Shown: positions 1 to 14,113 of the stretch, piece after piece | Layout of the letters: the number at the start of each line of letters is the position of its first letter | Numbering within the stretch: position 1 is the first letter of the stretch | From: a virus | DNA: 15,090 bases | Strand: one strand, 5' to 3' | Virus record (IMG/VR): IMGVR_UViG_3300025289_000020 | Position numbers and translations under genes: made by a program | The notes under the pieces: generated by a model | Databases searched by the model: none | The model's input: the letters and a program-made list of their open reading frames with translations, nothing else | Told to the model about the DNA's origin: nothing

Positions 1-94
1 CGCCAGCTTCACCGGCACCCTCACCTCCGCCATGGGCATCGACATCCCCGCCCCGCAGATCGTCGGCGGCACACCCACCGTCACCACCATGTAC
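1..94. repeat. Terminal overlap, identical to 14997..15090 (circular closure or terminal redundancy)
   Basis: Base-by-base comparison: cgccagcttcaccggc...caccaccatgtac occurs at both window ends, 94/94 identical. Confidence 0.95.
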
Positions 95-394
95 GGCCTC
101 CGCGTCAACGACCAGGGCCATTCCAGCATCGGCACCGTCTACGGCGTCTACATCGCCAACATCACCGCCGGCACGACCCGCCGCCTGCTGGAGGTCCTCG
201 GGCTCACCGGCCCCAACCTCCGCGTGGAGGCCGGCGACCCGACATCGCCCGGCGCCAGCAAGGGACGCTCGCAGGTGCTCCTCGACTTCAACGAGAACGG
301 CACCGTCACCCTGCGCCGCGTCGAGTGGATCGACAGCGGGGCAGCCGGCGGCGCCGGCATCCCCGCCAACGCCAAGCTACTCATCGCCGTCTAG
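2..394 (+). CDS. Tail spike/fibre protein, C-terminal part (continuation of 14110..15090 across the junction)
   Basis: The frame is open from base 2 (ASFTGTLTSAMGIDIP...) and matches the last residues of the open-ended ORF at the window end. Stop TAG at 392-394. Strong C-ending third positions. Joined length 1281 nt = 426 aa. Confidence 0.8.
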   Translation, partial: ASFTGTLTSAMGIDIPAPQIVGGTPTVTTMYGLRVNDQGHSSIGTVYGVYIANITAGTTRRLLEVLGLTGPNLRVEAGDPTSPGASKGRSQVLLDFNENGTVTLRRVEWIDSGAAGGAGIPANAKLLIAV

Positions 395-403
395 CCATGC
401 TGT

Positions 404-431
404 CCACTGCCCACTATCCACTGTCCACTGC
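404..431 (+). repeat. Four tandem heptamers: CCACTGC CCACTAT CCACTGT CCACTGC
   Basis: Read directly in the 56-nt gap between the fibre stop (394) and the next start (451). In another register it reads T(G/A)(T/C)CCAC x4. Confidence 0.9.
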
Positions 432-450
432 GACCGAAGGGAGCTGACCC

Positions 451-735
451 ATGCCACGCATCACCCTCACCGTCGACGGCAAGGCCTACGACATCCCGGA
501 CGCCGCCGTCCCCGCCATCCAGGTCCACGTCGACCGCACCAACGCCGCCGCCAACACCGCCCTCTCCCTCGGCGAGTGGCTGGCCCTCCACCTGCAGGAG
601 CTCGCCATCGCCGACGCCCTGGCCGCCGCCGTCGCCCAGCTCCAGCAGCAGCAGCAGGACGACGCCAACGCCGCCCTGGAAGCCGCGATCAAGGCCGCCC
701 GCGACGAGCTGCTCGCGTCGCTGACAACGCCGTGA
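451..735 (+). CDS. Hypothetical protein, 94 aa, Ala/Gln-rich helical C-terminus
   Basis: ATG preceded by GAAGGGAG (436-443). High GC3. Its stop overlaps the next candidate start (GTGA). Confidence 0.75.
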   Translation: MPRITLTVDGKAYDIPDAAVPAIQVHVDRTNAAANTALSLGEWLALHLQELAIADALAAAVAQLQQQQQDDANAALEAAIKAARDELLASLTTP

Positions 736-950
736 TCGCCCTCTACGCCGTCGGCGCAGCCTACGCCGTCGCCATCGTCCACGCGGCGGGCCGCCTCTGC
801 CTCCTTGCCTGCGCCCACGGGCTACGCAACGCGCTACCCGCCCTCGAACACGCACACCCGCAACCCCCGTCAGAATGGCCCCTCAGCCTGCCTCACGCGC
901 TTTCAGCGCACCCGCCTGCGCCGGTGCTACAATGGCCGCGTGATAACTGA
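732..950 (+). CDS. Small membrane protein (holin or SAR-like segment candidate), 72 aa
   Basis: GTG overlaps the upstream stop (GTGA). The N-terminus VIALYAVGAAYAVAIVHAAGRLCLLACA is a Gly/Ala-rich hydrophobic helix. GC3 is good for the first ~30 codons, then declines. Lies directly upstream of the endolysin. Confidence 0.4.
   Translation: MIALYAVGAAYAVAIVHAAGRLCLLACAHGLRNALPALEHAHPQPPSEWPLSLPHALSAHPPAPVLQWPRDN
925..933 (+). promoter_or_regulatory. Extended -10-like element TGCTACAAT
   Basis: TGnTAnAAT ends 6 nt before GTG 940, which has no Shine-Dalgarno. This is compatible with a leaderless endolysin transcript. Confidence 0.35.
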
Positions 951-1668
951 CCTCACCGCCCGCTTTCCGATCCCCCGCGCCTGGCCCCGCCAGACCAGCC
1001 GCCCCGCCGACATCGACACCAACGCCATCCACCACACCGCCACCCTCTACCTCTCGCCCACCGCCGCCGAAGCCGACGAGATCAACCAGATCGCCGTCAT
1101 TCACCAGTACCACATCGGCCGCGGCTTCGCTGGCTTCGGCTACCACGGCATCGCCTTTCCCAGCAGTCGCGCCTACATCGTCACGCCCTTCGACCAGTGG
1201 GGCGCCAACGTCGCCGAAGAGAACGACCACGTCCACGGCTACGCCGCCGCCGGCACCTACACCACCACGCCACCCCCGCCGGCCCTCCACACCGGACTCG
1301 CCCGCCTCGTCGCCGCCGGACGCCGCTACCTCGGCCGCACCGTCCCCGACAGACCGCACCGCCATTGGGGCGGCACCACCTGCCCGGGCGAACCGTGGGC
1401 GACCTGGGTGCCCGCCCTCACCATCCTCGCATCCAAGGAGGACGACACCATGACCCCACAACAGCAGAAAGAGCTCGCCGCCGCCACCGCCGCCGTCACC
1501 GCCCTCCGCAGGCGCGCCGCCTACGACGCCCACATCGGCGTCCTCCTGCAGTACGCCGGCCAGCTCACCGCCCTCGGCTCCACCGACCCCCGCCCCGTCC
1601 TCGCCGCCCTCAAGAAGCGCATCGCCACCTTCGACGCCGCCCTCGCCTCTGGAGCCGCCCATGCCTAA
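940..1668 (+). CDS. Endolysin, N-acetylmuramoyl-L-alanine amidase (Amidase_2/PGRP type)
   Basis: Motifs AIHHTAT, GFAGFGYHGIAF and HRHWGGTTCPGEPW match the zinc-ligand and signature layout of T7-lysozyme-type amidases. The start is uncertain: GTG 940 gives the usual ~30 aa before the HH motif, but the frame is open and shows good GC3 from TTG 805. Confidence 0.85.
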   Translation: MITDLTARFPIPRAWPRQTSRPADIDTNAIHHTATLYLSPTAAEADEINQIAVIHQYHIGRGFAGFGYHGIAFPSSRAYIVTPFDQWGANVAEENDHVHGYAAAGTYTTTPPPPALHTGLARLVAAGRRYLGRTVPDRPHRHWGGTTCPGEPWATWVPALTILASKEDDTMTPQQQKELAAATAAVTALRRRAAYDAHIGVLLQYAGQLTALGSTDPRPVLAALKKRIATFDAALASGAAHA

Positions 1669-1831
1669 GACCCGCACCGCCGCCGGCGTCAAGGTCACCG
1701 TCACCGCGCCCTTGCTGCCCGTCGCTCTCGCCACCGCCCAGCCCGAGGCCGCCGCCCTCTGCATCATCGCCGCCGCCCTCCAGGCCATGGAAGACCAGGA
1801 GAAGGCCCACGGCACGCCCGCCGAAACGTAA
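1661..1831 (+). CDS. Hypothetical small protein, 56 aa, with a central hydrophobic stretch
   Basis: ATG overlaps the endolysin stop (ATGCCTAA). Very high C-ending GC3. Segment APLLPVALATAQPEAAALCIIAAALQA. Stop TAA at 1829-1831. Confidence 0.6.
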   Translation: MPKTRTAAGVKVTVTAPLLPVALATAQPEAAALCIIAAALQAMEDQEKAHGTPAET

Positions 1832-2162
1832 GCCCGGCGCGCAGCCCGGCAACACCAACGCCCTCACGACCGGCCTGTACGCCCGCTCGCTCGACCGCGC
1901 CCGCCTGCACCAGTACGAGATCGCCCTCGGCATGAGCCCCACCGACCTCACCCGCGAAATCGCCCTCCTCCGCGAGCGCGTAGACCTCCTGCTCCAGGCC
2001 GCCCCCGAACGCCTGGAGCTCCTCATCGCGGCCCTTGGGCGGTTGACACGCATGGTCGCCACGCACTACCATCTCAGCGCCGCCGACACCGACCGGCTCA
2101 CCCAGGCCACACGCAACGTCCTCGACGAGATCGAGGCCACCCTCGGAAGGGGGCACGACTGA
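1830..2162 (+). CDS. GNxNA..GLY-motif protein (paralogue of the TerS-like 5902..6459). 5' boundary undefined: no start codon
   Basis: High GC3 begins exactly at 1830 in this frame (KPGAQPGNTNALTTGLYARSL...). There is no ATG/GTG/TTG in frame upstream, and the first ATG is at 1932. Stop TGA at 2160-2162. Confidence 0.55.
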   Translation, partial: KPGAQPGNTNALTTGLYARSLDRARLHQYEIALGMSPTDLTREIALLRERVDLLLQAAPERLELLIAALGRLTRMVATHYHLSAADTDRLTQATRNVLDEIEATLGRGHD

Positions 2163-2341
2163 TGGACACCGTCTTCACCGACTGCGGCAGCGCCTCCGTC
2201 GCCGTCCAAACCGCCGCAATCGCCCTCACCGCCACCGCCCTGGCCGTCTCCGCCTTCTGCCTCGCCTACATCGCCAAGACCGTCCGCAGCTGGGCAGCCT
2301 GGACCGGGTCCGCTCGAACGCCCCCCGCCGACGACGCCTAG
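2162..2341 (+). CDS. Small membrane protein, 59 aa (holin-like)
   Basis: ATG overlaps the upstream TGA (TGATG). One clear TM helix, VAVQTAAIALTATALAVSAFCLAYIA. High GC3. Confidence 0.65.
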   Translation: MDTVFTDCGSASVAVQTAAIALTATALAVSAFCLAYIAKTVRSWAAWTGSARTPPADDA

Positions 2342-2357
2342 CCCCGGAGGTCACACC

Positions 2358-2441
2358 ATGCGCAACCTGCTCACGATCGCCGCCATCTACGGCATCGGCG
2401 TCGCCACCGGCATCACCTACTCCCTGCTCGCCCTCACGTAG
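2358..2441 (+). CDS. 27-aa hydrophobic peptide
   Basis: GGAGG (2346-2350) lies 7 nt before the ATG. Sequence MRNLLTIAAIYGIGVATGITYSLLALT is essentially a single TM helix. Confidence 0.5.
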   Translation: MRNLLTIAAIYGIGVATGITYSLLALT

Positions 2442-3110
2442 GCTTTGGCGCACCAGCCGGACCCGGCGACGCCCATCGCTCGCCCCACCGCGTAGCGGCC
2501 CAGCACGACGCCATACCGGCCCCCGCCCGGCAGCGCCGACGCCTGTGCCCGCAGGGCCGGGCACGTCGCTTCGCTCCTCACTGGGCGGCGGCTCGCCGGG
2601 CCACCACCTTTCTTCACCCCCGCCTGCCGGCCACGTCGGGCGGCTCTTCGCGGGCAGGGCGCCCCACCCTCGCAGGCTCCCACCACCCCACACGCCCGCT
2701 CAGCCCGCCCTCCGTCGCCTTGCATGGCGGCCCCACGGCCACGGCTCCGCGCCACCCCCGCCGCTCAGGCGGCGACCCCTCCCGCTCCGCCGGCGCCGAC
2801 CCCACAGCGCCGGCAACGACCCGTAGCTACGGCAACCTGAATCGTTTTCCGAAAAAGAACCAAAGCGGCGCGCGAGGCGCGCGTAGCGGTAGCCGGCTTC
2901 GCCGGCACTGAGGACGGTTCACCGCTCCGGCTGGGGGGCCGTGGCGGGGCTGGCCCCTTCCTGGCACGGCGTCGCCGGTCGGCAACCCTACGGGTCCTCC
3001 GCTGCGCTACGGCCCGCCCTACGGGCGGGTGCCTTCCCGCCTCCTTCCGTGCCTGGGGGGCCTTGGCCCCGCTCACTTGGCCCCCCGCCGGGGGGCGGTG
3101 AACAGGGCTG
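2442..3110. other. Large non-coding region between the end of the late/lysis operon and the first early gene
   Basis: No frame on either strand gives a credible protein (only Pro/Arg/Gly-rich translations). The + strand is C-rich at 2442-2830 and G-rich at 2867-3110, with an AT-rich core in between. Many GC hairpins. Confidence 0.6.
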
Positions 3111-3124
3111 GAAAGGGGCGTGTC

Positions 3125-3307
3125 GTGGCCGGTGCATATCGCGCGTGTCCTGGGTGTGGCCGTCGCCGCTCGTCCTGGCTGGCCTGCGGTCACTGCGGCT
3201 GGCGCTGGCCTCTCTGTTCGTGTGGTTTGCCGTTGGGGCCGTCCGGCTGCGCCCGGTCCGGCTGTGGCGGTCAGTCGGCGCTGTTCGCGCCGGAGAAAGG
3301 GGAGTAG
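3125..3307 (+). CDS. Zinc-ribbon mini-protein A, 60 aa (CPGCG..x8..CGHCG, ends PEKGE)
   Basis: GTG lies 6 nt after GGAAAGGGG. Shares Cys spacing and the C-terminal PEKG(E/D) with the 3549..3704 product. Its last codons form the SD of the next gene. GC3 does not discriminate it from the overlapping frame of ORF 2941..3552. Confidence 0.55.
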   Translation: MAGAYRACPGCGRRRSSWLACGHCGWRWPLCSCGLPLGPSGCARSGCGGQSALFAPEKGE

Positions 3308-3309
3308 TC

Positions 3310-3552
3310 GTGTTCTCGGAGATCATCGTCGCAACCTGCCGTGAGTGCGGAGAGCACACACACCTGCGGCTGTGGCCGGAGCGGGCGGTCTGCCTGTCCT
3401 GCGGCGGGAGCTGGTGCCGGTGCTGCAACCCGCCGGTGACCCTTCCGCCCGCCGGGGCGGCCCCCTGCCCGGCGCAAGACTTCAAGCGCGCCCTGCAGGC
3501 CACCTACGGCGGGCGTATAGAAGAGCACGCGCGCTACTGGGTGGCGTCGTGA
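3310..3552 (+). CDS. Cys-rich zinc-ribbon protein, 80 aa
   Basis: GTG lies 5 nt after GGAGAAAGGGGAG. Contains CRECG...CLSCG plus CRCC. Its stop overlaps the next start (GTGA). Confidence 0.7.
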   Translation: MFSEIIVATCRECGEHTHLRLWPERAVCLSCGGSWCRCCNPPVTLPPAGAAPCPAQDFKRALQATYGGRIEEHARYWVAS

Positions 3553-3704
3553 TTGGCCTGTGGTCCTGCCCACGCTGCGGCTCGCTCTACACCGCCGTAC
3601 CGCAGCAAGATAGAAGCCCGCGCGCACCGTCGGTTTGCGGACACTGCACCGTCACCCTCCGGCCCCTGGCAACCGTCCCGGAGAAAGGGGACCAGCGGCC
3701 ATGA
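3549..3704 (+). CDS. Zinc-ribbon mini-protein B, 51 aa (CPRCG...CGHC, ends PEKGDQRP)
   Basis: GTGA overlap with the upstream gene. Paralogous layout to 3125..3307. Its C-terminal codons again spell GGAGAAAGGGGA, the SD for the next gene. Confidence 0.65.
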   Translation: MIGLWSCPRCGSLYTAVPQQDRSPRAPSVCGHCTVTLRPLATVPEKGDQRP

Positions 3705-3979
3705 GCCGCTCGGCCCGCCGCTGGCCGCCGCTGGACACGCCGCCGGAGCGCCGCCCTCCGGCCCCGGCTCCCCGCCAGCCTTCGCCCTGGTGGCCCGTCG
3801 CCGGTGTCGCCGCTGCCGCGCTACTCGTCGCAGCCGGCAGCTCCCGGCCCGGCCCGTCGCCGGAGGAATCCATACGGGCATACGCCTGCCAGCACCAGAC
3901 GGACGCCGTGCTGGCCTGGGCGGAAGACCGGGGCGTCCGGGTAGACGTGCGGGAGTGCCCGCCGAGAGAGGAGAAGTAG
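3701..3979 (+). CDS. Membrane-anchored protein, 92 aa
   Basis: ATGA overlap, with the SD 9 nt upstream. Pro/Arg-rich N-terminus, then TM WWPVAGVAAAALLVAAG, then a small C-terminal domain. Confidence 0.7.
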   Translation: MSRSARRWPPLDTPPERRPPAPAPRQPSPWWPVAGVAAAALLVAAGSSRPGPSPEESIRAYACQHQTDAVLAWAEDRGVRVDVRECPPREEK

Positions 3980-3981
3980 CC

Positions 3982-4392
3982 ATGCCCACCCTGAACGGAG
4001 CCTGCCCCGGCTGCGGCCAGCCCCTCACCCTGGAGGTAGCCGTCCGCACAGCCCCGCGCGGCTTCACGTCCGACAGCCGGCAGGTACAACTCGTCGGCGA
4101 CCGGGAGCCCGGCCAGGGCGGCACGCCCACACCGGACAACGAAGAGCCCTACGGCACCACCCGCGCCGCTGCCCCGCACTACTCCGGCGTCAGCCGTCCC
4201 CACCCGTCGCCGGTCAACTCGCAGGACGGACGCCCCACCTGCCCGGAGTGCGGCCTGGACGGCGCGCGGCTGGAGCAGGTCGCCAAGAAGAGCGGTCGCG
4301 CCTTCACCGCCTGGAAGTGCATCAACACCGAGTGCGACCAGAACGACGAAATCATCCCGGGTACCTTCCGCTGGGGAAAGGCAGCGGCGTAG
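3982..4392 (+). CDS. Zinc-finger protein, 136 aa, with a topoisomerase-type C4 finger-like C-terminus
   Basis: GAGGAG lies 8 nt before the ATG. N-terminal CPGCG. C-terminal CPECG..x20..KCINTEC with GRAFTAWKC resembles the CPxCG...F..C...C pattern of Topo I C4 fingers (from memory, not searched). Confidence 0.8.
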   Translation: MPTLNGACPGCGQPLTLEVAVRTAPRGFTSDSRQVQLVGDREPGQGGTPTPDNEEPYGTTRAAAPHYSGVSRPHPSPVNSQDGRPTCPECGLDGARLEQVAKKSGRAFTAWKCINTECDQNDEIIPGTFRWGKAAA

Positions 4393-4408
4393 ACTCCAGA
4401 CAACCACC

Positions 4409-4447
4409 GGCCCGCCGGACGGTTGCACCCCCTCCGTCCGGCGGGCC
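4409..4447 (+). terminator. Perfect 14-bp stem hairpin (GGCCCGCCGGACGG / CCGTCCGGCGGGCC, 11-nt loop), no U-tract
   Basis: Read directly, 17 nt after the 4392 stop and 27 nt before ATG 4474. Could be a terminator/attenuator or an RNA stability element. Confidence 0.5.
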
Positions 4448-4473
4448 ACCAGCACCGACAGAGGAGAACGACC

Positions 4474-5094
4474 ATGAAGAGCACAGCCACCATCGCCAGC
4501 GTCAAGACCTCGCACCAGGCCGCCAACTACAACGGCCCCGCCACCACCACCCTGAGCATCACCCTAGACATCCCCCTACCCACGCCGACCGCGCCGCTCA
4601 CAATCACCGACTGGGCGCGCCGGCTGCCGTACAACGAGACGCAGGAGATCCGGAAGGCCCAGGAGCAACGCGCGGCCAGGGCCGCCGGGCGGAAGCCCCT
4701 GAACCTCACCAAGAAGCAGAAGCAGGCCCAGGAAGACGCGCACGACGACGGCGAGGAGTGCGCCTGGACGCTCACCTGCGAGAACTGCAACCCCGTCACC
4801 GGCGCGGGAGAGGGCGACGACCTCCCCTGCCTGGAGCACAGAGACCCCGACTGCCTCACCTGCGAGGAGGCGGGCGCCCCCTTCCTGGACGGGGCCACCC
4901 AGGCCAACCTCCAGGCCCGCTACGAGCTCTACGTCACGGACGTTCAGACCATCAACCGCCAGGCCGTCCAGGCGGCGCAGGAGGCGGCCCTCTTCCTGCT
5001 GCTCATCAAGCAGGCCGTCCAGGTGACGGTCGAACCCCTGCAGGGAGCAATGTCCGACCTGCTCCTCCTGGAAGGAGGCGAGCCCGCCGGCTAA
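4474..5094 (+). CDS. Hypothetical protein, 206 aa, with a central Cys cluster
   Basis: GAGGAG lies 7 nt before the ATG. High GC3. Contains CENC..x15..C..x7..CLTC. Lys/Gln-rich linker and helical C-terminus. Confidence 0.85.
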   Translation: MKSTATIASVKTSHQAANYNGPATTTLSITLDIPLPTPTAPLTITDWARRLPYNETQEIRKAQEQRAARAAGRKPLNLTKKQKQAQEDAHDDGEECAWTLTCENCNPVTGAGEGDDLPCLEHRDPDCLTCEEAGAPFLDGATQANLQARYELYVTDVQTINRQAVQAAQEAALFLLLIKQAVQVTVEPLQGAMSDLLLLEGGEPAG

Positions 5095-5124
5095 ACGCTC
5101 ACCCGCTTAGACCTATTGACAGTC

Positions 5125-5160
5125 GCACCGCCCTGGCGCTATCGTCGGGGCGGTGCTTTT
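5125..5160 (+). terminator. Intrinsic terminator: 9-bp GC stem (GCACCGCCC / GGGCGGTGC) followed by TTTT
   Basis: Sits 30 nt after the 5094 stop. It is the only stem plus T-tract I found in the window and closes the early module. Confidence 0.7.
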
Positions 5161-5291
5161 GCGAGGCCAGCGCGGGCGGCCCGCCTGCCACCAACGGCAG
5201 CCAGGGCCGCCCGCGCCGGGCCAACAGCAGGGGCACCGAGAGGAGACGGCCATTGCAGAGCACCACCGCAGAGGCCAGAGCCACCGGCCCA

Positions 5292-5300
5292 TGCTATAAT
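5292..5300 (+). promoter_or_regulatory. Extended -10 element TGCTATAAT
   Basis: Perfect TGnTATAAT in a ~70% GC genome, located in a non-coding gap. No good -35. Confidence 0.45.
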
Positions 5301-5365
5301 CGCGGCCAGCACCAACCCCAGGGAGAACAGGGCAGCCGGGCAGGTTCGCACTATACATGTTCGCA

Positions 5366-5394
5366 TCGACGGCTGCCCCCGCTCGGCGTAGAAT
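5366..5394 (+). promoter_or_regulatory. Promoter-like TCGACG - 17 nt - TAGAAT
   Basis: The spacing and hexamers fit a sigma70/SigA-type promoter. The -10 ends 9 nt before the coding-like segment that opens at 5404. Confidence 0.45.
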
Positions 5395-5403
5395 CGGCCC
5401 CAA

Positions 5404-5626
5404 TTGTACGCCCCCGACCGGCTCCAACTCCAGCTACTCCGCCAGCTCGCCCAGACCGCCGGATACACCGGCCCCGGCCTGATCTGCCTCGACTGCCCAC
5501 GCCCCCAACACCTGCCCCCCTTCCTCCCCTTCTTCCTCCCAATCCACGTCCGGGAGCACCTGGAACGCTGGCCCACCCACGCCCTGCGCTGGTGGTGCTG
5601 GACGTGCTGCGCGTTTGATTGTACCC
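5404..5626 (+). CDS. Coding-like zinc-ribbon segment (CLDC..x32..CWTCC) with a TTG start and no in-frame stop
   Basis: High C-ending GC3 from 5404 to about 5612 in this frame, after which GC3 collapses. The frame stays open to 6459. The next real gene (ATG 5627) is in the +1 frame. Confidence 0.3.
5610..5626 (-). repeat. 17-bp motif copy A (minus orientation): reverse complement GGGTACAATCAAACGCG
   Basis: 16/17 identical to copy B at 6075..6091 in inverted orientation. Abuts ATG 5627. Confidence 0.85.
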
Positions 5627-5905
5627 ATGCCCAACGACTCGATTCAGCCCACGTTCAACGAATCCGAGGCCATCTCCAACGACGCCGCCCTGCAGCAGCT
5701 CCTCAAGTGGTACCCCGGCCAGGAGGCCCAGATCATCGCCGCCTACCGCCGCCGGCACCCACACGAAGGCTGCAACTGCCCCTGGCAGAACCGGAAGGCG
5801 GGCCGCTGCTGCACCCTGGACCGCATCAACCCGCCCCCCCAGGCCAGCCGCCGAAGCAGAAGCCCAAGCCGCGCAGGCCAGTACAGGGAGCAGATAAACC
5901 GGTGA
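5627..5905 (+). CDS. Hypothetical protein, 92 aa, with CNC...CC cysteines and a basic tail
   Basis: ATG start with high GC3. Its stop overlaps the next start (GTGA). No SD; motif copy A occupies the upstream 17 nt. Confidence 0.7.
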   Translation: MPNDSIQPTFNESEAISNDAALQQLLKWYPGQEAQIIAAYRRRHPHEGCNCPWQNRKAGRCCTLDRINPPPQASRRSRSPSRAGQYREQINR

Positions 5906-6459
5906 GCCCCCGGGGAGGGCGCCGCCCCGGCGCAGGCGCGCCACGGGGTAACAAGAACCGCCTCCTGCACGGCCTCTACTCCGGCGACCCGGAGACCCGC
6001 CGCCTCTCCCGCGCCCTCGCCGCCCTGCCCGCCGACGTCCGGCAGCAGCTCCTCCCCTACGTCAAGGAGGGCCTGGGTACAATCAAACGCCGCCTCGCCT
6101 GGGTGGCCCCGCACCTGCGCCACCAGGAGCCCACCGGCAACCTCGTCCACTTCCCTACCGTCACAACAACAACACCGCCGGTTCAATCAAACGCCCACCT
6201 GGCCCCGCTGGTCCTGCAGCTCACCGCCGCCGGCCTGTTCGGCGCCGGTCCCTTCGTCCACGACCACGCCCCAGCCGCCGGCGTCATCTGCGAGGTCCTC
6301 CAGTACATCCACGACCACCCGGAGGGGATCGCCAACCCCGGCGCCCTCATCCGATACCTCGTCCACCAGGAACTCGCAGAGCCAGCCGCGGGCGGCGGAC
6401 TCCGCTGCCCCTACTGCCGGTGGACAGACCACCGGCAAAGAGAGGAGAGCACCTCATGA
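5902..6459 (+). CDS. Terminase small subunit-like protein, 185 aa (N-terminal GAPRGNKNRLLHGLYS motif)
   Basis: GTG start. The GxPxGNxNxxxHGxY motif recurs in YjcR/PBSX-type small terminases (from memory). Size and position upstream of TerL fit. C-terminal CPYC. Confidence 0.6.
   Translation: MSPRGGRRPGAGAPRGNKNRLLHGLYSGDPETRRLSRALAALPADVRQQLLPYVKEGLGTIKRRLAWVAPHLRHQEPTGNLVHFPTVTTTTPPVQSNAHLAPLVLQLTAAGLFGAGPFVHDHAPAAGVICEVLQYIHDHPEGIANPGALIRYLVHQELAEPAAGGGLRCPYCRWTDHRQREESTS
6075..6091 (+). repeat. 17-bp motif copy B: GGGTACAATCAAACGCC
   Basis: Inside the TerS-like gene, encoded with atypical codons ggt aca atc aaa. Confidence 0.85.
6179..6195 (+). repeat. 17-bp motif copy C: CGGTTCAATCAAACGCC
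   Basis: 15/17 identical to copy B and 104 bp downstream in direct orientation. Encoded with atypical codons gtt caa tca. Confidence 0.8.
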
Positions 6460-6650
6460 CCGACCCCCAGGACATCGGCCTGGACGACGAGATCAACACC
6501 TGGACGGCCAACGGCGCCGGCCTGCTCCGCCGCATCCGCGACCGGCGTCAGAAGCTCCAGGCCGCCGACCGCGAGCTGGCCGCCATCGAGGCCCGCACCA
6601 TCGACGCCCTGCACCAGCTCAGCGCCATCCAGGAGGCGGTGACGCGATGA
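6456..6650 (+). CDS. Hypothetical coiled-coil protein, 64 aa
   Basis: AGAGGAGAG lies 8 nt upstream. ATGA overlaps at both ends. High GC3. Confidence 0.75.
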   Translation: MTDPQDIGLDDEINTWTANGAGLLRRIRDRRQKLQAADRELAAIEARTIDALHQLSAIQEAVTR

Positions 6651-6748
6651 ACGACCACGACCCCGAAGGATGGGCCTGGCCCTACGCCGTGCTGCTGCTC
6701 ATCCTCCTGCTGGCCTTCGCCATCTGGTACGCGGGGCTCGCACAATGA
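6647..6748 (+). CDS. 33-aa membrane peptide
   Basis: ATGA overlaps at both ends. Contains the TM segment YAVLLLILLLAFAIWYAGL. Confidence 0.6.
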   Translation: MNDHDPEGWAWPYAVLLLILLLAFAIWYAGLAQ

Positions 6749-6948
6749 AACCCCACTACAGCGCCCGCCTGGAACGCTGCACCCAGTCCACCGACAGCAA
6801 GACCGGCGGGCCCCTCCCCCTGCGCATCCAGATCGCCATCCCCTCATACGCCACCGGCCTGGCCATCCTGCGCGACCTGTCCGCAGGCCGCGTCCCTATC
6901 ACCATCGTCATCGAGGCCGTCCAGGCCCACCTACCGGAACCCGAATGA
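6745..6948 (+). CDS. Hypothetical protein, 67 aa
   Basis: ATGA overlaps at both ends, with good GC3. Function unknown. Confidence 0.7.
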   Translation: MKPHYSARLERCTQSTDSKTGGPLPLRIQIAIPSYATGLAILRDLSAGRVPITIVIEAVQAHLPEPE

Positions 6949-8309
6949 CCATCCAGCTCCGCCCCTACCAGGCCGAGCCGGCGCGGGCCATCATCCGCGA
7001 CGCCCGCCTCGGCGGCGGGCACACATTCACCGTCCTGATGAGCCGGCAGGCCGGCAAGAACGAGCTCAGCGCCTGGATCGAGAAGGTCCTCCTCGTCGCC
7101 AACATGGCCAACCCCCACGCGATCGGCGTCAAGACCGCACCCACCCTGACGCCGCAGCTCCGCAACAGCATCCGCCGCCTGCGGGCCCACCTGGACGCCG
7201 CCGGCTTCCGCAACGCCTACGCCCTGGAGGAGGGCCACCTCCTCACCCTGGGCGCCGCCGCCTGGAACTTCCTCAGCGCCGCCCCCGGCGCCTCCGTCCT
7301 GGGCGCCACCGCCGGCCTGCTGCTGGAGGCCGACGAGGCCCAGGATATCGACCCCGACCGCTTCACAAAGGACTTCCGGCCGATGGCGGCCAGCACCGCC
7401 GCCACGACCGTCCTCTACGGCACACCCTGGAGCGAGGACGACCTGCTGCTGGCCACCGTCGCCGAGAACAAGGCGCGAGAGCGCAAGGACGGCCTCCAGC
7501 GGCACTTCGAATACCCCTGGCAGGAGGTGGCGAAGCACGTCCCCGCCTACGCCCGCTACGTGGAGGCTGAGCGCATCCGGCTCGGCCCCACGCACCCCCT
7601 GTTCACCAGCCAGTACGACCTCACGCCACTGCCGGGCACGGGCCGCCTGCTGTCGCCCGCCCAGCTCACCAACCTCCAGGGCAGCCACGACCGCCGCCAC
7701 TTCGCCAAGAAGGGCGAGACCCACGCCGCCGGCCTGGACGTCGCCGGCGAGGAAACCGACCCGCTCAGCCCCCGCGACCGCGACCACAACGTCCTGTGGA
7801 TCAGCCGCGTCACACCCGGCCCCAAGCACTCCCTCCCACTGTCCGAGACCGTCGCCATCTACGCCTGGCAGGGCACCGGCCACGACGCCCTCTACGCGCA
7901 CCTCCACCGCCTGCTACGCGACGTCTGGAACATCGCCCACGTCGCCGTGGACGCCACCGGCGCCGGCGAGGGCATGGCGATCCTCCTGGCCCGCTCCCTC
8001 GGCGAGCACCGCGTCACCGCCTACAAGTTCACCGAGCAGAGCAAGTCCCACCTGGGCTACCAGCTCCAGGCCGCAGCGAACACCGGCGCCCTCAAGCTCT
8101 GGAAGGCCGACGGCGGCGCGGAGCACAACGAGGCCCAGCGCCAACTTCGGCTCTGCCGCGCCGAGTACCGGCCAAACCGCACGGTCCGCTGGCACGTCGA
8201 CCCCAGCCAAGGGCACGACGACTACGTCGCCGCCGCCGCCCTCGCGGTCGAGGCCGCGACCCAGGCGCAGCCCCGCCGCGCCCGTGGTAGAATCCCCACA
8301 GCGCCATGA
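6945..8309 (+). CDS. terL: Terminase large subunit, 454 aa
   Basis: Walker A-like SRQAGKNE, Walker B-like LLLEADEAQD, and C-terminal acidic nuclease-type motifs GLDVAGEE, VAVDATGAGEG and GHDDYVAAA. Located directly upstream of the portal gene. Confidence 0.9.
   Translation: MTIQLRPYQAEPARAIIRDARLGGGHTFTVLMSRQAGKNELSAWIEKVLLVANMANPHAIGVKTAPTLTPQLRNSIRRLRAHLDAAGFRNAYALEEGHLLTLGAAAWNFLSAAPGASVLGATAGLLLEADEAQDIDPDRFTKDFRPMAASTAATTVLYGTPWSEDDLLLATVAENKARERKDGLQRHFEYPWQEVAKHVPAYARYVEAERIRLGPTHPLFTSQYDLTPLPGTGRLLSPAQLTNLQGSHDRRHFAKKGETHAAGLDVAGEETDPLSPRDRDHNVLWISRVTPGPKHSLPLSETVAIYAWQGTGHDALYAHLHRLLRDVWNIAHVAVDATGAGEGMAILLARSLGEHRVTAYKFTEQSKSHLGYQLQAAANTGALKLWKADGGAEHNEAQRQLRLCRAEYRPNRTVRWHVDPSQGHDDYVAAAALAVEAATQAQPRRARGRIPTAP
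8285..8293 (+). promoter_or_regulatory. Extended -10-like TGGTAGAAT inside the last codons of terL
   Basis: The last 10 terL codons use atypical cgt ggt aga aca cca, and the element ends 12 nt before portal ATG 8306, which has no SD. Confidence 0.3.
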
Positions 8310-9655
8310 CCGACCAGACGCCACTCCCCCACCTCCTCAAGAACCGGGACCGCGACCGCCTCCAGCAGTACACCAGCGCCCTGGCCTTCTACGAGGGCAA
8401 GCAGTGGCCGGCGCCAGAGGCGCGCACCCGCAGCGTCCGCCGCCTCACGCTGAACTACGCCAAGGCCATCGTCAACAAGACCGCCACGTTCACCATGAAG
8501 GGCGCCGCCGTCAACGCCAGCCCCCGCTCCGACAGCGACGAGGACATCGCCGCCGCCGCCGCGGTCGAGCACTACCTGGCGGAGCTGGCCCACAACAACG
8601 GCCTGGCCCGCCTGGACCTGGTGACCGAGATCGACGCCGCCGTCCTCGGCGACGCCGCCTACAAGGTCACCTGGGACACCGCAGAGGAGCGCGTCGCCAT
8701 CACCGCCCCCGACGTGCGCGGCCTCTTCCCCTGGCCGCACCCGACCGACCCCACGCGGTTTACCCGCGTCGCCCATCGCTACACCCTCCCCCGCGAGGAC
8801 GTCATCGCCCTGTGGGGCATCGCCCCACGCGACAAGACCGCCGAAATCATCGAGGACTGGACCGACGCCACCCTGGACATCTGGATCGACGGCGGCCCCA
8901 CGCCCACCCTCACCCAGGTCAACCCCTACGCCCTCATCCCCCTCGTCATCTACCCCAACAACCAGGTCCCCAAACGGTGGTGGGGCGAATCCGACGTTCT
9001 CCCCCTCCAGGAGATCGCACAGGAGCTCAACCGCCAGATGACCCGCGTCAGCAACATCCTGGAGCTCTCCGGCTTCCCGATCGCCGTCCTGGAGAACGTG
9101 GACGAGGCCACCGACATCGCCGCCGTCCCCGGCGCCGTCTGGGAGCTGCCCAGGGAGGCCAAGGCCTACCTGCTGGACCTCCTGCAGGGCGGCGGCGTCA
9201 AGCTCCACCTGGACTACACCGACCACCTCCTGCGCGCCCTCCACGACATCAGCGAGACCCCCCGGACCGCTTTCGGCAACGTGGACCGCGAGCTCTCCGG
9301 CGTCGCCCTGCAGGTCGAGCTGCAGCCCCTCCTCCAGAAGGTCGACCGGAAGCGCACCATTCGCGGCGACGCCTACACCCAGCGCGCCGCTCTCGCCCTG
9401 CGCCTCTCCGACCTCTTCACCGGCACCGCCTATACCGACTCCATCGCCGGCCTCACGGCGTCCTGGGACCCGCCCGGCCCCGCAGACAGGACGCGGGACA
9501 TCGAAGACGAGACCGCGCTCGTCACCAACGGCCTGTCTAGCCGCCGCAGCAGCATGGGGCGCTTGCAGACCCCCGACCCAGACAAAGAGCTGGCGACCTG
9601 GCAGGAGGAGACCCGCGCTATCGAGGCCTTGACATCAGCGCCTAAACGCGGGTAA
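8306..9655 (+). CDS. Portal protein, 449 aa
   Basis: Immediately follows terL (ATGA overlap) and has typical size. N-terminal YEGKQW...LTLNYAKAIVNK resembles SPP1 gp6-type portals (from memory). Confidence 0.85.
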   Translation: MTDQTPLPHLLKNRDRDRLQQYTSALAFYEGKQWPAPEARTRSVRRLTLNYAKAIVNKTATFTMKGAAVNASPRSDSDEDIAAAAAVEHYLAELAHNNGLARLDLVTEIDAAVLGDAAYKVTWDTAEERVAITAPDVRGLFPWPHPTDPTRFTRVAHRYTLPREDVIALWGIAPRDKTAEIIEDWTDATLDIWIDGGPTPTLTQVNPYALIPLVIYPNNQVPKRWWGESDVLPLQEIAQELNRQMTRVSNILELSGFPIAVLENVDEATDIAAVPGAVWELPREAKAYLLDLLQGGGVKLHLDYTDHLLRALHDISETPRTAFGNVDRELSGVALQVELQPLLQKVDRKRTIRGDAYTQRAALALRLSDLFTGTAYTDSIAGLTASWDPPGPADRTRDIEDETALVTNGLSSRRSSMGRLQTPDPDKELATWQEETRAIEALTSAPKRG

Positions 9656-9658
9656 GCT
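9629..9658 (+). promoter_or_regulatory. Promoter-like TTGACA - 18 nt - TAAGCT
   Basis: Perfect -35 and a TANNNT -10 ending 9 nt before ATG 9668, which lacks an SD. Would drive the scaffold and capsid genes. Confidence 0.35.
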
Positions 9659-9667
9659 CCTCACGAA

Positions 9668-10090
9668 ATGCCAGACGCTAACGGCAACCCCACCCCCGAA
9701 GAGCAGGCGGCCGCAGAACAAGCCACCGCCGCCCAGCCGCAGGCCGACACCCAAGCCCTCACCGAACAGCTCACCCAAGCCCAGGCCCGCAACCTGGAGC
9801 TGGAGACCGCCGCCATCCGCGCCGCCAACCCCGACCTCCCGGACGCGGCCTTCGCCGGCGACGACCTCGCGGCCATCCAGGCCAGCGTCGCCACCGCCAG
9901 GGCCGTTGCCGACCACGTCCGCGAGCAAACCGTTGCCAACGGCGCCGCCACGCCCGCCGCCGCCGCCGCCGCCGTCGCCGCCGCTGCAGCCGCGACCCCC
10001 ACAGGCGCCGGCGCACAGCGAACGCCCCCCGCACCCGAGGGGCTGAAGGGCATCGACCGCATCAAGTTCGGGCTCGCCCAGAGGAGCTAA
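9668..10090 (+). CDS. Scaffolding protein candidate, 140 aa
   Basis: Lies between the portal and capsid genes. Ala/Gln/Glu-rich helical sequence, low complexity. Confidence 0.65.
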   Translation: MPDANGNPTPEEQAAAEQATAAQPQADTQALTEQLTQAQARNLELETAAIRAANPDLPDAAFAGDDLAAIQASVATARAVADHVREQTVANGAATPAAAAAAVAAAAAATPTGAGAQRTPPAPEGLKGIDRIKFGLAQRS

Positions 10091-10093
10091 CCA

Positions 10094-11059
10094 ATGGCCC
10101 TGACACTCGCCGAAGCCGACAAGTACAGCACCAATCAGGTCCTCGTCGGCGTCGCCGAGATCACAATGGACCAGAACCCGCTCCTCGGCCTCCTGCCGTT
10201 CACCCCCATTCGCGGCAACGCCCTCCAGTACCAGCGCGAGCTCGCCGCCAGCGCCCCCACCTTCATCGCCACCGGCGGCACAGTCACCGAAGGCGTCCCC
10301 ACCACCAGCCTCATCACCACAGCCCTTAAAATCCTCATCGGCGACGCCGACATCGACAACTTCCTCCGCGTCACCAGGTCGAAAGACCAGGACCTCCGCG
10401 CCGAGCTGCTGGCAATCAAGGCCCGCAACTTCGCCGACACCTGGGGCGACGCCGCCATCTACGGCAGCATCGACGCCGCCGCCGCGCAGTTCGACGGCCT
10501 CCACGAGATCATCGCCGACGACGTAACCGCCCAGCAGCTCCACGCAGGCTCCGTCGCCACGCCAGGCGTAGGAACCTTCACCCTGCTTCGCGAACTGATC
10601 GACCTCATCCGGCCCCGGCCCACCGTCCTGATCATGAGCCGCCGCACCCGGCGCGGCATCCAGAAGCTCGCCGTCTCCCAGGGCTGGGACCTGGCCCTAA
10701 CGAACGTCGCCGGCATCGACCGCCAGGTCCAGACGTTCAACGAAGTCCCCATCCTCCCCTGCGACTTCATAACCGACACCGAGACCATCGCCAGCTCCGC
10801 CTTCGCCGCCAAGACCGGCGGCACCGCCTCCAGCATCTTCGCCTGCCGGCTGGCCGAAGACGGCCTGTTCGGCATCTCCGCCGACGACCCCAACGCCCAG
10901 GACGACCTTGAGCGCATCATCCAGGTCGAAGAGGTCGGCGCCCTGGAGACCCAGGACGCCCGCCGCACCCGCCTGAAGGCCTACACCGCCCTCTGCGTCA
11001 AGGCCAGCCAGGCGATCGGCCGGATTGACGGCATCTCCTCCGGCGACTGGACCAACTAA
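10094..11059 (+). CDS. Major capsid protein candidate, 321 aa
   Basis: GAGGAG lies 7 nt upstream. Position after the scaffold gene, size typical for HK97-fold coat proteins, very strong GC3. No diagnostic motif read by eye. Confidence 0.75.
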   Translation: MALTLAEADKYSTNQVLVGVAEITMDQNPLLGLLPFTPIRGNALQYQRELAASAPTFIATGGTVTEGVPTTSLITTALKILIGDADIDNFLRVTRSKDQDLRAELLAIKARNFADTWGDAAIYGSIDAAAAQFDGLHEIIADDVTAQQLHAGSVATPGVGTFTLLRELIDLIRPRPTVLIMSRRTRRGIQKLAVSQGWDLALTNVAGIDRQVQTFNEVPILPCDFITDTETIASSAFAAKTGGTASSIFACRLAEDGLFGISADDPNAQDDLERIIQVEEVGALETQDARRTRLKAYTALCVKASQAIGRIDGISSGDWTN

Positions 11060-11061
11060 CC

Positions 11062-11250
11062 ATGGCGGGCATCTGGTGCCCCCGCTGCCAGACAAAGGTC
11101 CGCCTGGAACAGGACGACCAGAGCTGCAGCAACTGCGGCCGCAAACTCGTCATCGCGGCCCCCACACCCCCACCCCCGCCCCCACGCGGGAAACGCGCCC
11201 CACGCGCCAGGAAACCCACCAGCCCGCCCAGGCCAAAGCCCGCCGCCTAA
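11062..11250 (+). CDS. Zinc-ribbon protein, 62 aa, with a Pro/Arg/Lys-rich tail
   Basis: CPRC..x12..CSNCG followed by PPPPPPRGKRAPRARKPTSPPRPKPAA. The ATG lies 2 nt after the capsid stop. Confidence 0.7.
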   Translation: MAGIWCPRCQTKVRLEQDDQSCSNCGRKLVIAAPTPPPPPPRGKRAPRARKPTSPPRPKPAA

Positions 11251-11264
11251 AGGAGCGCCGCTAG

Positions 11265-11885
11265 GTGCCGACCGCGCTCGCCACCATCAGGGGCCGCCTC
11301 CAGACCGTCCTTGACGACGCCGCCGCCGCCGTCTGGACCACCGGCGAGCTCGACCAGCACATCCAGGACGCCCTCCGCGACCTCTCGCACCGCATCCCCC
11401 GCGAGCGCACCACCACTATCGCCACCACCAGCGGCAGCCGCGACGTGTCCCTGGCGACCCTCACCGAGCGCGTCCGCATCGTCGCCGTCGAGTGGCCCAC
11501 CGGCAGCGACCCCAAGAACTTCGTCGACTTCTCCGAGTGGGCCGACGTCCTGCGCATCGACAGCCTCGGCATCCCCGACGGCACCGACTGCATCATCTAC
11601 TGGCAGAGCCTCCACAGCATCAACGGCACCAAGACCCTGCCCGAGGACTACGACGACGCCCTCGTTCACGCCGCCGCCGCCCGTGCCTGCGACCAGCAGG
11701 CCGCCGACGCCTCCAACGCCCTGAACACCGGCGGCCCCCCGGCGACCCGCGACTGGCGCACCCTGGCCGCCCACTTCCGCAACCGCTACGAGGAGCGCGT
11801 CGCACCCCGTCGCGGCATCAAGCGCCGCCGCCTCTACGCCCCCGCCGAGCCCACGCCCACCCAGAACACCGACCCAGGGCCATAG
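11265..11885 (+). CDS. Structural protein, 206 aa (head-tail adaptor / tubular protein A-like by position)
   Basis: AAGGAG lies 9 nt before the GTG, with high GC3. Function inferred only from T7-like gene order and size. Confidence 0.55.
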   Translation: MPTALATIRGRLQTVLDDAAAAVWTTGELDQHIQDALRDLSHRIPRERTTTIATTSGSRDVSLATLTERVRIVAVEWPTGSDPKNFVDFSEWADVLRIDSLGIPDGTDCIIYWQSLHSINGTKTLPEDYDDALVHAAAARACDQQAADASNALNTGGPPATRDWRTLAAHFRNRYEERVAPRRGIKRRRLYAPAEPTPTQNTDPGP

Positions 11886-11888
11886 CCG

Positions 11889-13922: not shown

Positions 13923-13987
13923 AAAACGACCCTCTGAGAGCCACGAGAAGCCCCCCCAACCAACCGCCACCACACCAGGAGACCCCC

Positions 13988-14113
13988 GTGTGTGAAGACT
14001 GCGGAACGCTCGCCACCACCGTCTACCCCCACTGCGACGCCAACCTCTGCCCCGACTGCATCAACGACCACATCGAGCACGCACACGCCCAATACCAAGA
14101 CGAGGAACCATGA
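13988..14113 (+). CDS. Zinc-ribbon mini-protein, 41 aa
   Basis: AGGAG lies 7 nt before the GTG. Contains CEDCG..x10..C..x4..CPDC. Its stop overlaps the spike start (ATGA). Confidence 0.65.
   Translation: MCEDCGTLATTVYPHCDANLCPDCINDHIEHAHAQYQDEEP

What the first reader, a model, noticed from the sequence alone, without database searches (positions are those of the whole stretch)
1826..1835. Coding potential jumps to the +1 frame exactly at a stop codon, with no start codon available
The ORF from ATG 1661 ends ...GAA ACG TAA (1829-1831). High-GC3 coding resumes at AAG 1830 in the +1 frame (KPGAQPGNTNALTTGLY...). That sequence contains the motif conserved in the paralogue 5902..6459, so it is almost certainly translated. 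There is no ATG, GTG or TTG in that frame anywhere upstream, where the codons are agg/aga/aaa-rich and non-coding-like. Candidate explanations are programmed +1 frameshifting at a stop (prfB-like logic), unusual reinitiation, or a single-base insertion in the assembly. Deleting T1829 gives a seamless GAA ACG AAG CCC.
Basis: seen in the sequence. Interest (0 to 1): 0.6.

Follow-up and report, generated by a model that had tools for sequence, protein, structure and literature searches.

The report
Overlapping phage gene starting at ACG
The downstream reading frame is a separate, conserved 117-residue phage gene that overlaps the end of the gene before it and most likely begins at an unusual ACG codon, where related phages have ATG, GTG, TTG or ATC, so no frameshift at the stop codon or sequencing error is needed.

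Summary
High-GC3 coding switches from the frame of ORF X (1661-1831) to the +1 frame near 1830. The junction is letter-identical in 8 other assemblies and in contigs of 4 further runs, so it is not an indel error.

The switch is not at the stop. Frame-Y codons 1815-1829 read RPPKRK, which matches the N-termini of full-length homologues (MSKRPPKRKPGAQPGN...). X and Y therefore overlap.

About 25 distinct related ~15-kb phage lineages keep the same X/Y overlap, with a Shine-Dalgarno sequence for Y inside X:
- In outgroups the codon 5-10 nt after it is ATG, GTG or TTG.
- In one or two groups (the tree leaves this unresolved) it is ATC.
- In the window's monophyletic clade (13 rows) it is always ACG (window 1809-1811, 7 nt after AGGAG 1797-1801).
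- The ATG of relative L016 and the window's ACG differ by a synonymous His change (CAT to CAC) in X.

Y stays intact and under purifying selection across the clade.

Best reading, about 0.65: near-cognate ACG initiation, possibly coupled to X termination 18 nt downstream. A +1 frameshift remains possible at about 0.1, but no slippery site is shared. Near-cognate starts are a known kind, and this scan has noted ACG starts on other DNA. The reading is not confirmed experimentally.

The parts
805..1668 (+). Endolysin gene (N-acetylmuramoyl-L-alanine amidase, 287 aa), upstream context
   Evidence: Weak Pfam Amidase_2 hit on the called gene in identical loci. PHROG endolysin/amidase hits.
1661..1831 (+). 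Gene X: conserved 56-aa hydrophobic small protein (..APLLPVALAT..AALCIIAAAL..). Its ATG overlaps the amidase stop (ATGCCTAA), and its TAA is at 1829-1831.
   Evidence: Homologues occur in all related lineages. The single membrane helix and a role in lysis are inferred from sequence and position only.
1797..1801 (+). Shine-Dalgarno sequence AGGAG for gene Y, embedded in X codons CAG GAG
   Evidence: Invariant in 10 of 11 distinct ACG-clade junctions (GAGGA in L047). An SD-like motif lies 5-10 nt before Y's start in all 24 lineages tabulated.
1809..1811 (+). Proposed non-canonical start codon ACG of gene Y, 7 nt after the SD
   Evidence: Invariant in the clade although the bases on both sides vary. 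It is the positional homologue of the ATG of L016 (X..A-H-D, CAT G, against the window's ..A-H-G, CAC G). Not shown experimentally.
1809..2162 (+). Gene Y: 117-aa protein with a basic N-terminal arm (RPPKRKPGAQPGNTNA), followed by helices
   Evidence: Alignment A1. At least 1769 homologues; those listed as full length are mostly 110-135 aa. AlphaFold model pLDDT 73, helical, with no fold match.
1829..1831 (+). TAA stop of X, lying inside Y codons CGT AAG (Arg-Lys), 18 nt downstream of the ACG
   Evidence: The X/Y overlap is 23-26 nt in every ACG-clade member and 35-101 nt in all other lineages.
1933..1935 (+). Internal ATG that gene callers use as Y's start (76-aa database protein P0004)
   Evidence: This Met is replaced by Leu in clade members L015, L021 and L023, so it is not the conserved start.
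5902..6459 (+). Second gene with the GN.N..HGLY motif, upstream of the large terminase; canonical GTG start
   Evidence: 36% identity over 47 residues, E = 0.002.

Best explanation
Gene Y (1809-2162) is an independent gene. Its first 23 nt overlap the 3' end of gene X (1661-1831) in the +1 frame. Ribosomes reach it through its own Shine-Dalgarno sequence (AGGAG, 1797-1801), which lies inside X. They initiate at the near-cognate codon ACG (1809-1811) and make a 117-residue protein that begins (f)Met or Thr-Ala-Arg-Pro-Pro-Lys-Arg-Lys-Pro-Gly.

Shown here:
- the overlap
- the conserved ribosome-binding site
- the positional homology of the ACG with canonical starts in relatives
- the long-term maintenance of Y

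Inferred:
- that ACG itself is the initiation codon
- that initiation may be helped by ribosomes terminating X only 18 nt downstream (termination-reinitiation)
- that ATG was lost because the same base is the third position of a His codon in X, where CAC is favoured over CAT in a genome with GC3 above 0.9
For: 1. Frame Y reads RPPKRK at 1815-1829, upstream of X's stop. This matches full-length homologues that begin MSKRPPKRKPGAQPGN (P0010, P0013) or MTNPSKPRRPKRRPGAQ (P0006).
2. In the overlap, changes among clade members are mostly synonymous in Y and non-synonymous in X: GCA/GCG, CCG/CCC, AAA/AAG and CGC/CGG. One change goes the other way.
3. At 1830-1932, window against L001 shows 8 synonymous and 2 non-synonymous differences in Y (pN/pS 0.09), against 1 and 8 in X's frame.
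4. All 11 distinct junctions of the clade have an SD, then 5-7 nt, then ACG in frame Y. There is no canonical start in the open frame, apart from one probably chance GTG in L015. L017 has an in-frame TAG 18 codons before the PG motif, 9 before its ACG, which confines entry into frame Y to that interval.
5. Lineages with the same X/Y overlap carry ATG (L016), GTG (L053, L079, L055, L059, L028/29), TTG (L027, L054, L056, L057, L058, L060, L061) or ATC (L026, L065, L049-L052) at the equivalent SD-spaced site.
6. From these starts Y is 113-124 aa in nearly all lineages (L065 reads 182 aa). This matches the family, whose listed members are mostly 110-135 aa; only ACG-clade entries are 76-81 aa.
7. 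The ACG clade is monophyletic (99/99, 13 rows) with about 30% protein divergence and intact ORFs.
8. In E. coli, ACG supports initiation at 0.1-1% of AUG, with Met and some Thr at the N-terminus (bioRxiv 10.1101/063800).
Against: - No protein or ribosome data exist for this phage. No listed sequencing run is on record as RNA.
- ACG is a very weak start in E. coli.
- I found no described natural conserved ACG start in bacteria or phages in the searchable literature.
- Within this one genome, an SD followed by a near-cognate codon and a long open frame also occurs by chance at about five other sites. The case therefore rests on the comparison between lineages.
- The clade is one evolutionary origin, so the invariance of ACG is partly inheritance.
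- X is always in the frame from which a +1 shift would reach Y. Frame geometry therefore cannot exclude frameshifting.
Confidence: 0.65

Rival explanations
1. Programmed +1 ribosomal frameshift inside the overlap, upstream of RPPKRK. One candidate is a slip of tRNA-Pro on CCC_G at 1817-1820. Another is a shift near the SD. The product would be an X-Y fusion of about 167 aa.
For: Y is always +1 of X. Most clade members have ACG CCC GCC in X's frame, and L017 has a run of six C. CCC-N is a known +1-prone site (own knowledge). An SD-like element lies upstream, as in prfB.
Against: - L047 and L048 have no CCC codon in X's frame (..GCC ACG GCC CAC CAG GCG TAA) yet keep an intact Y.
- No slippery motif is shared with the ATC lineages, which also lack a canonical start.
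- The SD is 15 nt from CCC, not about 3 nt as in prfB.
- The A-site codon after CCC (GCC) is not rare.
- No covarying downstream RNA structure was found.
- Relatives with ATG, GTG or TTG show that Y is made as a stand-alone protein.
- No X-Y fused homologue appears among the 120 best of at least 1769 family members, although the length range searched (62-231 aa) would include one.
Confidence: 0.1
2. One reading: a +1 shift or hop exactly at the stop codon (ACG TAA G), joining ..PAET to KPGAQ.
For: The stop sits at the frame junction. Stop codons are slow A-site codons that drive prfB-type shifts. The stop context (A/G)CG TAA G is conserved in the clade.
Against: - tRNA-Thr or tRNA-Ala on ACG or GCG cannot re-pair on CGU.
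- The SD is 24 nt upstream of the shift codon.
- The fusion would omit RPPKRK, which is conserved with distant homologues and evolves synonymously in frame Y.
- The ATC lineages, which also lack a canonical start, have X's stop 56-83 nt downstream of Y's start, well inside the conserved core.
Confidence: 0.03
3. Y is expressed only as the truncated 76-aa protein from ATG 1933, or from some other unrecognised codon. The upstream motif would then be an untranslated relic.
For: Gene callers choose ATG 1933. It is the first canonical start.
Against: The Met is Leu in L015, L021 and L023. The segment 1830-1932 is under purifying selection in frame Y. It also holds the family's only invariant block, RKPGAQPGN.NA.
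Confidence: 0.07
4. A start-codon loss that silences Y, making it a decaying or trace-level pseudogene, as with ordinary ATG-to-ACG mutations seen in single phage genomes.
For: ACG differs from ATG by one base and is a poor start in E. coli. Similar single-genome cases were read that way elsewhere in this scan.
Against: The ACG state is shared by a monophyletic clade of at least 11 distinct lineages. Their ORFs are intact, there are no frameshifts or stops, and pN/pS is 0.09-0.2 between close pairs. The SD and its spacing are retained.
Confidence: 0.05
5. A single-base insertion introduced by assembly or sequencing.
For: Deleting one base would fuse the frames.
Against: The junction is identical in 8 other assemblies and in contigs of 4 further runs, with no indel. 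The layout is the same in relatives with only 67-88% protein identity.
Confidence: 0.01

Closest known systems
Near-cognate (non-AUG/GUG/UUG) initiation in bacteria, such as AUU in E. coli infC and pcnB, and measured initiation from ACG and AUC in E. coli (Hecht et al., bioRxiv 10.1101/063800)
   Same: The codon is one base away from AUG. It is positioned by a Shine-Dalgarno sequence at normal spacing, and relatives use canonical codons at the same site.
   Different: The codon is ACG, a second-position mismatch. In E. coli it falls in the weakest class (0.1-1% of AUG), and I found no described natural conserved example in bacteria or phages. Here it is conserved across a phage clade and lies inside another gene. 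Its use is inferred, not measured.
Termination-reinitiation between overlapping genes, such as the coat and lysis genes of RNA phage fr (34-nt overlap; Adhin and van Duin 1990, as summarised in PMC10666635)
   Same: The downstream gene starts upstream of the upstream gene's stop, in the +1 frame, in a phage lysis region. The short distance (18 nt) between restart site and stop would allow local reinitiation.
   Different: Dependence on X translation is untested. Relatives with canonical starts have much longer overlaps (35-101 nt), so coupling is not a general requirement of the family. PMC10666635 finds that coupling is efficient mainly for overlaps of 1-8 nt.
prfB (RF2) programmed +1 frameshift
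   Same: The frame change is +1, a stop codon sits at the junction, and an SD-like element lies upstream.
   Different: There is no slippery codon that can re-pair. The SD spacing is wrong. Conserved coding in the new frame begins 21 nt before the stop. Relatives initiate the gene independently.
Small terminase-like proteins with a GN.NA..HG motif
   Same: The basic N-terminal arm and motif are shared with the product of 5902-6459, next to the large terminase. There is a weak hit to PHROG 1889 'terminase small subunit' (E = 0.0045).
   Different: No significant Pfam, PDB or fold match. Y sits in the lysis cassette, not beside the large terminase. Its function is unknown.

Membership tests
prfB-type programmed +1 frameshift | P-site codon whose tRNA can re-pair in the +1 frame (CUU_U type), directly before an in-frame stop | tested here: not met
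   The codon before TAA is ACG or GCG, and its +1 reading is CGU, so no re-pairing is possible.
prfB-type programmed +1 frameshift | SD-like stimulator about 3 nt upstream of the shift codon | tested here: not met
   AGGAG ends 24 nt before ACG 1826-1828 and 15 nt before CCC 1817-1819.
prfB-type programmed +1 frameshift | The conserved protein is the trans-frame fusion, and homologues without the shift encode it as one ORF | tested here: not met
   Homologues are stand-alone proteins, mostly 110-135 aa, with their own starts. None of the best 120 is X-Y fused.
Near-cognate translation initiation | Codon one base from AUG at SD spacing of about 5-10 nt, in frame with the conserved protein | tested here: met
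   AGGAG, 7 nt, then ACG at 1809. The same holds in all 11 distinct clade junctions, and ATC occupies the site in L026, L065 and L049-L052.
Near-cognate translation initiation | Positional homology with canonical start codons in relatives | tested here: met
   ATG in L016 falls on the same His codon of X. GTG or TTG is present in 12 further lineages. Predicted proteins are 113-124 aa in nearly all lineages.
Near-cognate translation initiation | No canonical start that could give the conserved N-terminus | tested here: met
   In the window the nearest in-frame canonical start is 138 codons upstream of the ACG. Relatives have stops 18-50 codons upstream of the PG motif and no start between.
Near-cognate translation initiation | Protein N-terminus or initiating ribosomes mapped to the codon | not testable with these tools
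   The phage is known only from metagenomes, and no listed run is on record as RNA.
Termination-reinitiation coupling | Stop of the upstream gene close to the restart codon | tested here: inconclusive
   The stop is 18 nt downstream of the ACG (23-nt overlap). That is the shortest overlap in the family but longer than the 1-8 nt overlaps reported as efficient (PMC10666635).
Termination-reinitiation coupling | Downstream translation depends on translation of the upstream gene | not testable with these tools
   Needs reporter constructs.
Phage small terminase | Significant match to a small-terminase family or fold, and a position next to the large terminase | tested here: not met
   The only hit is PHROG 1889 at E = 0.0045. 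There is no Pfam, PDB or fold match, and the gene lies 4.8 kb from the large terminase, in the lysis cassette.

The most novel reading that the evidence does not exclude
The ACG start works only because ribosomes that finish X at the clade-specific TAA, 18 nt downstream, re-initiate locally on the embedded SD. Start-codon proofreading would be relaxed for such ribosomes. On this reading, the shortening of X in the ACG clade (overlap 23 nt against 35-101 nt elsewhere) compensates for the loss of ATG. That loss was driven by codon bias (CAT to CAC) in the overlapping gene. It would be a natural case of one gene's codon usage eroding another gene's start codon, with coupling evolving to rescue it.
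Probability: 0.25. Interest if true: 0.6.

Novelty: new member of a known kind. Interest (0 to 1): 0.42.

Why it matters
If ACG is the start, a whole clade of small Chloroflexota-associated soil and sediment phages makes a conserved protein from a codon that annotation software never considers. Every database record of this gene in the clade is cut to 76-81 residues and lacks the family's only invariant motif.

The lineages form a natural series (ATG, GTG, TTG, ATC, ACG) at one homologous ribosome-binding site. That series could be used to measure how tolerant a non-model bacterial translation system is of near-cognate starts. It could also test whether overlap with another gene's codon bias drives the loss of start codons.

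It also removes a tempting but unsupported call of programmed frameshifting.

Tried and rejected
- No whole genome is held for this window, so own-genome searches were not possible.
- blastn and tblastn against GenBank phages found nothing.
- Pfam gave nothing for X, Y or the second motif gene.
- The profile search against PDB sequences and the Foldseek searches of PDB and BFVD with the Y model gave only chance-level helical matches. Y's function stays unknown.
- The protein atlas gave only unnamed, mostly Chloroflexota clusters.
- RNAalifold on 7 clade junctions found no pair with compensatory change. The small hairpin it predicted lies in the PGAQPG codons.
- No tRNA gene was found that could serve as a private initiator, and there were no Rfam matches.
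- No RNA holder was listed among public runs. Only contigs, not raw reads, could be laid, so per-read support and expression could not be examined.
- I first considered that ATG 1787 followed by an extra G (ATG-G-AAG) marked a 1-nt insertion after an old start. I rejected this because relatives, including the close L039, have ATC or other codons there.
- The pN/pS comparisons of the 3' half of Y with L015, L021, L023 and L025 are invalid because of an indel and were ignored.
- The single-genome co-occurrence of SD and ACG is not significant by itself.

Full report
**What is in the window**

The window is 71% G+C and carries a phage morphogenesis set: a terminase-large-like gene at 6945-8309, an SPP1-type portal at 8306-9655 and a capsid-like gene at 10094-11059. 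The finding lies in the lysis region.
- An Amidase_2 endolysin gene occupies 805-1668.
- A 56-codon ORF, here called X, runs from ATG 1661 to TAA 1829-1831. Its ATG overlaps the amidase stop.
- High-GC3 coding then continues in the +1 frame, here called Y, to TGA 2160-2162. Two small hydrophobic ORFs follow.
- GC3 is 0.93-0.97 in X's frame up to 1829 and 0.87-1.0 in Y's frame afterwards. A cruder scan puts the onset of high GC3 in Y at about 1803.

Two details do not:
- Frame Y is open back to GTG 1197, with TTG 1365 and GTG 1395. These lie inside the amidase gene in a non-coding frame.
- The codons just before 1830 are not non-coding.

**Not an artefact**

The junction is letter-identical in eight other assemblies that carry the same 76-aa database protein (L007-L014). 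Logan contigs from four further runs span 1650-2000 with no difference and no indel. These samples may belong to one campaign, and only contigs could be checked. Diverged relatives, however, have the same layout.

**The frame change is not at the stop**

A search with the Y translation found full-length homologues of 119-135 aa. Their N-termini read MSKRPPKRKPGAQPGNTNA (P0010, P0013), MTNPSKPRRPKRRPGAQPGN (P0006) and ..TSRPPKRKPGAQPGN (P0005).

The window's frame Y reads T-A-R-P-P-K-R-K-P-G-A-Q-P-G-N from 1809. The conserved RPPKRK is therefore encoded at 1815-1832, mostly upstream of X's TAA, which sits inside Y's CGT AAG.

Among clade members, the differences in this overlap are synonymous in Y and non-synonymous in X. 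They are GCA/GCG, CCG/CCC, AAA/AAG and CGC/CGG. Only one change goes the other way.

Downstream, at 1830-1932, window against L001 shows 8 synonymous and 2 non-synonymous differences in Y (pN/pS 0.09). The same bases read in X's frame give 1 and 8. Y is therefore translated from at least 1815.

**Comparison across relatives**

I fetched relatives from assemblies, IMG/VR and JGI metagenomes, which gave 73 distinct junctions. Many sit on contigs of about 14-16 kb, probably whole genomes of the same small phage type. About 25 distinct lineages keep a homologue of X with Y overlapping its 3' end in the +1 frame.

In every one of the 24 I tabulated, an SD-like motif lies inside X, 5-10 nt before an in-frame codon of Y:

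| Codon at Y's start site | Lineages |
|---|---|
| ATG | L016 |
| GTG | L053, L079, L055, L059, L028/29 |
| TTG | L027, L054, L056, L057, L058, L060, L061 |
| ATC | L026, L065 (AGGAG-N7-ATC); L049-L052 |
| ACG | window, L039, L001, L018, L017, L015, L021, L025, L023, L063, L047; also L024 |

From these codons Y is 113-124 aa in nearly all lineages; L065 reads 182 aa. A profile search found at least 1769 family members. The 120 listed are mostly 110-135 aa. Only the ACG-clade entries are 76-81 aa, because gene callers fell back on an internal Met. That Met (ATG 1933) is Leu in L015, L021 and L023.

**The ACG itself**

- It is invariant in the clade, while the base before it (C, A or G) and the base after it (G, C or T) both vary. 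X's residues there change among His/Asn/Asp and Gly/Ala/Val, only in ways that keep A-C-G.
- L017 has an in-frame TAG 18 codons before the PG motif, 9 before its ACG, so entry into frame Y must occur in that short interval.
- An ungapped alignment of X between L016 (..EEEAHDQP) and the window (..QEKAHGTP) places L016's ATG (CAT G) exactly on the window's ACG (CAC G). The difference is a synonymous His change in X. In a gene with GC3 above 0.9, CAC is the favoured codon. This gives a plausible, though inferred, reason for the loss of ATG.
- A maximum-likelihood tree puts all ACG sequences in one clade (99/99, 13 rows). That clade has about 30% protein divergence and no broken copy. This argues against a silenced gene.

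**Frameshifting as the rival**

Because X is always in the frame from which a +1 shift reaches Y, geometry cannot exclude frameshifting. Several points count against it:
- The only candidate slippery site, CCC_G at 1817-1820, is absent from X's frame in L047 and L048.
- No motif is shared with the ATC lineages.
- The SD spacing is wrong for a prfB-like stimulator.
- The following codon is common.
- No covarying RNA structure follows.
- The ancestral state is clearly independent initiation.
- No fused X-Y homologue was seen.

A shift exactly at the TAA is weaker still. ACG or GCG cannot re-pair in the +1 frame, and the product would lack RPPKRK.

**Caveats**

- ACG is a poor start in E. coli, at 0.1-1% of AUG, with Met and some Thr found at the N-terminus (bioRxiv 10.1101/063800).
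- I found no described natural conserved ACG start in bacteria or phages in the searchable literature. This is not proof that none exists.
- Within this genome, an SD plus a near-cognate codon plus a long open frame occurs by chance at about five other places. The argument is therefore comparative.
- A rough estimate puts the chance of a recognised near-cognate codon at the SD-spaced in-frame site at about 0.09 per independent lineage. There are only two or three independent origins (ACG once, ATC once or twice).
- No expression data exist.

**Possible coupling to X**

The ACG clade has the shortest X/Y overlap, 23-26 nt against 35-101 nt elsewhere. This is because X ends at a clade-specific TAA 18 nt after the ACG. 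Ribosomes terminating there could re-initiate on the nearby SD, as proposed for the 34-nt coat/lysis overlap of phage fr (summarised in PMC10666635). This is a single evolutionary co-occurrence and remains a hypothesis.

**Function of Y**

Y has a basic, proline-rich N-terminal arm with the invariant RKPGAQPGN.NA block, followed by helices (AlphaFold pLDDT 73). It has no significant Pfam, PDB or fold match and only a weak PHROG small-terminase hit. It shares only the short motif with the product of 5902-6459, which starts at a canonical GTG. The atlas places the family mainly in Chloroflexota.

**Verdict**

This is a real, conserved gene overlap in which the downstream gene most likely initiates at ACG (confidence about 0.65). 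It is not a frameshift at the stop and not an assembly error. Near-cognate initiation is a known kind, and this scan has noted ACG starts on other DNA (e1-946018, e1-2922356 and others). I class it as a new member of a known kind, of moderate interest, pending a simple reporter or N-terminal proteomics test.

Noticed in passing
window 1436-1452: AAGGAGG followed 8 nt later by an in-frame ATG (1450) inside the amidase gene. This could give a separate 72-aa C-terminal product of the endolysin ORF, as known for some endolysins with internal starts.
   Followed up: no
window 1827-1867: Contig depth rises about tenfold over these 40 nt in three runs. Many other contigs in the same samples, including ones of 12-15 kb, share the nucleotide string that encodes KPGAQPGNTNA. 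The motif is thus conserved at DNA level across many co-occurring phages.
   Followed up: partly
L033:1230-1290: A distant Y homologue has no in-frame canonical start. An out-of-frame ATG is followed by a run of ten A. This could be a homopolymer indel or a slippage site.
   Followed up: no
L086:520-620: A Y homologue overlapping an X homologue has neither a nearby canonical start nor ACG or ATC at an SD-spaced site. Its only in-frame ATG is 29 codons upstream of the PG motif, in what looks like an off-frame reading of X. Its start is unresolved.
   Followed up: no
L065 (Y from ATC, 182 aa): In this relative of L026 the Y frame runs to 182 aa instead of about 114. Either the stop was lost or Y is fused to the next small ORF.
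   Followed up: no
window 2043-2072: A promoter-like TTGACA-18-TACCAT (10 of 12 matches) lies inside Y, upstream of the two small hydrophobic ORFs. The expected number in shuffled sequence is 0.1.
   Followed up: no
window 1-15090 and relatives' contigs: Contigs carrying this gene cluster at 14.1-16.5 kb (for example 15135, 15339, 14886, 15152, 15793 and 16281). This fits complete genomes of a very small tailed-phage type that is common in soil and sediment metagenomes and linked to Chloroflexota.
   Followed up: partly
L015:270-275: A synonymous TGC to TGT change in X creates an in-frame GTG for Y 21 codons upstream of the PG motif. The gene caller used it (P0005, 135 aa). It is probably a chance start, but it shows how easily annotation differs between near-identical phages.
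   Followed up: partly
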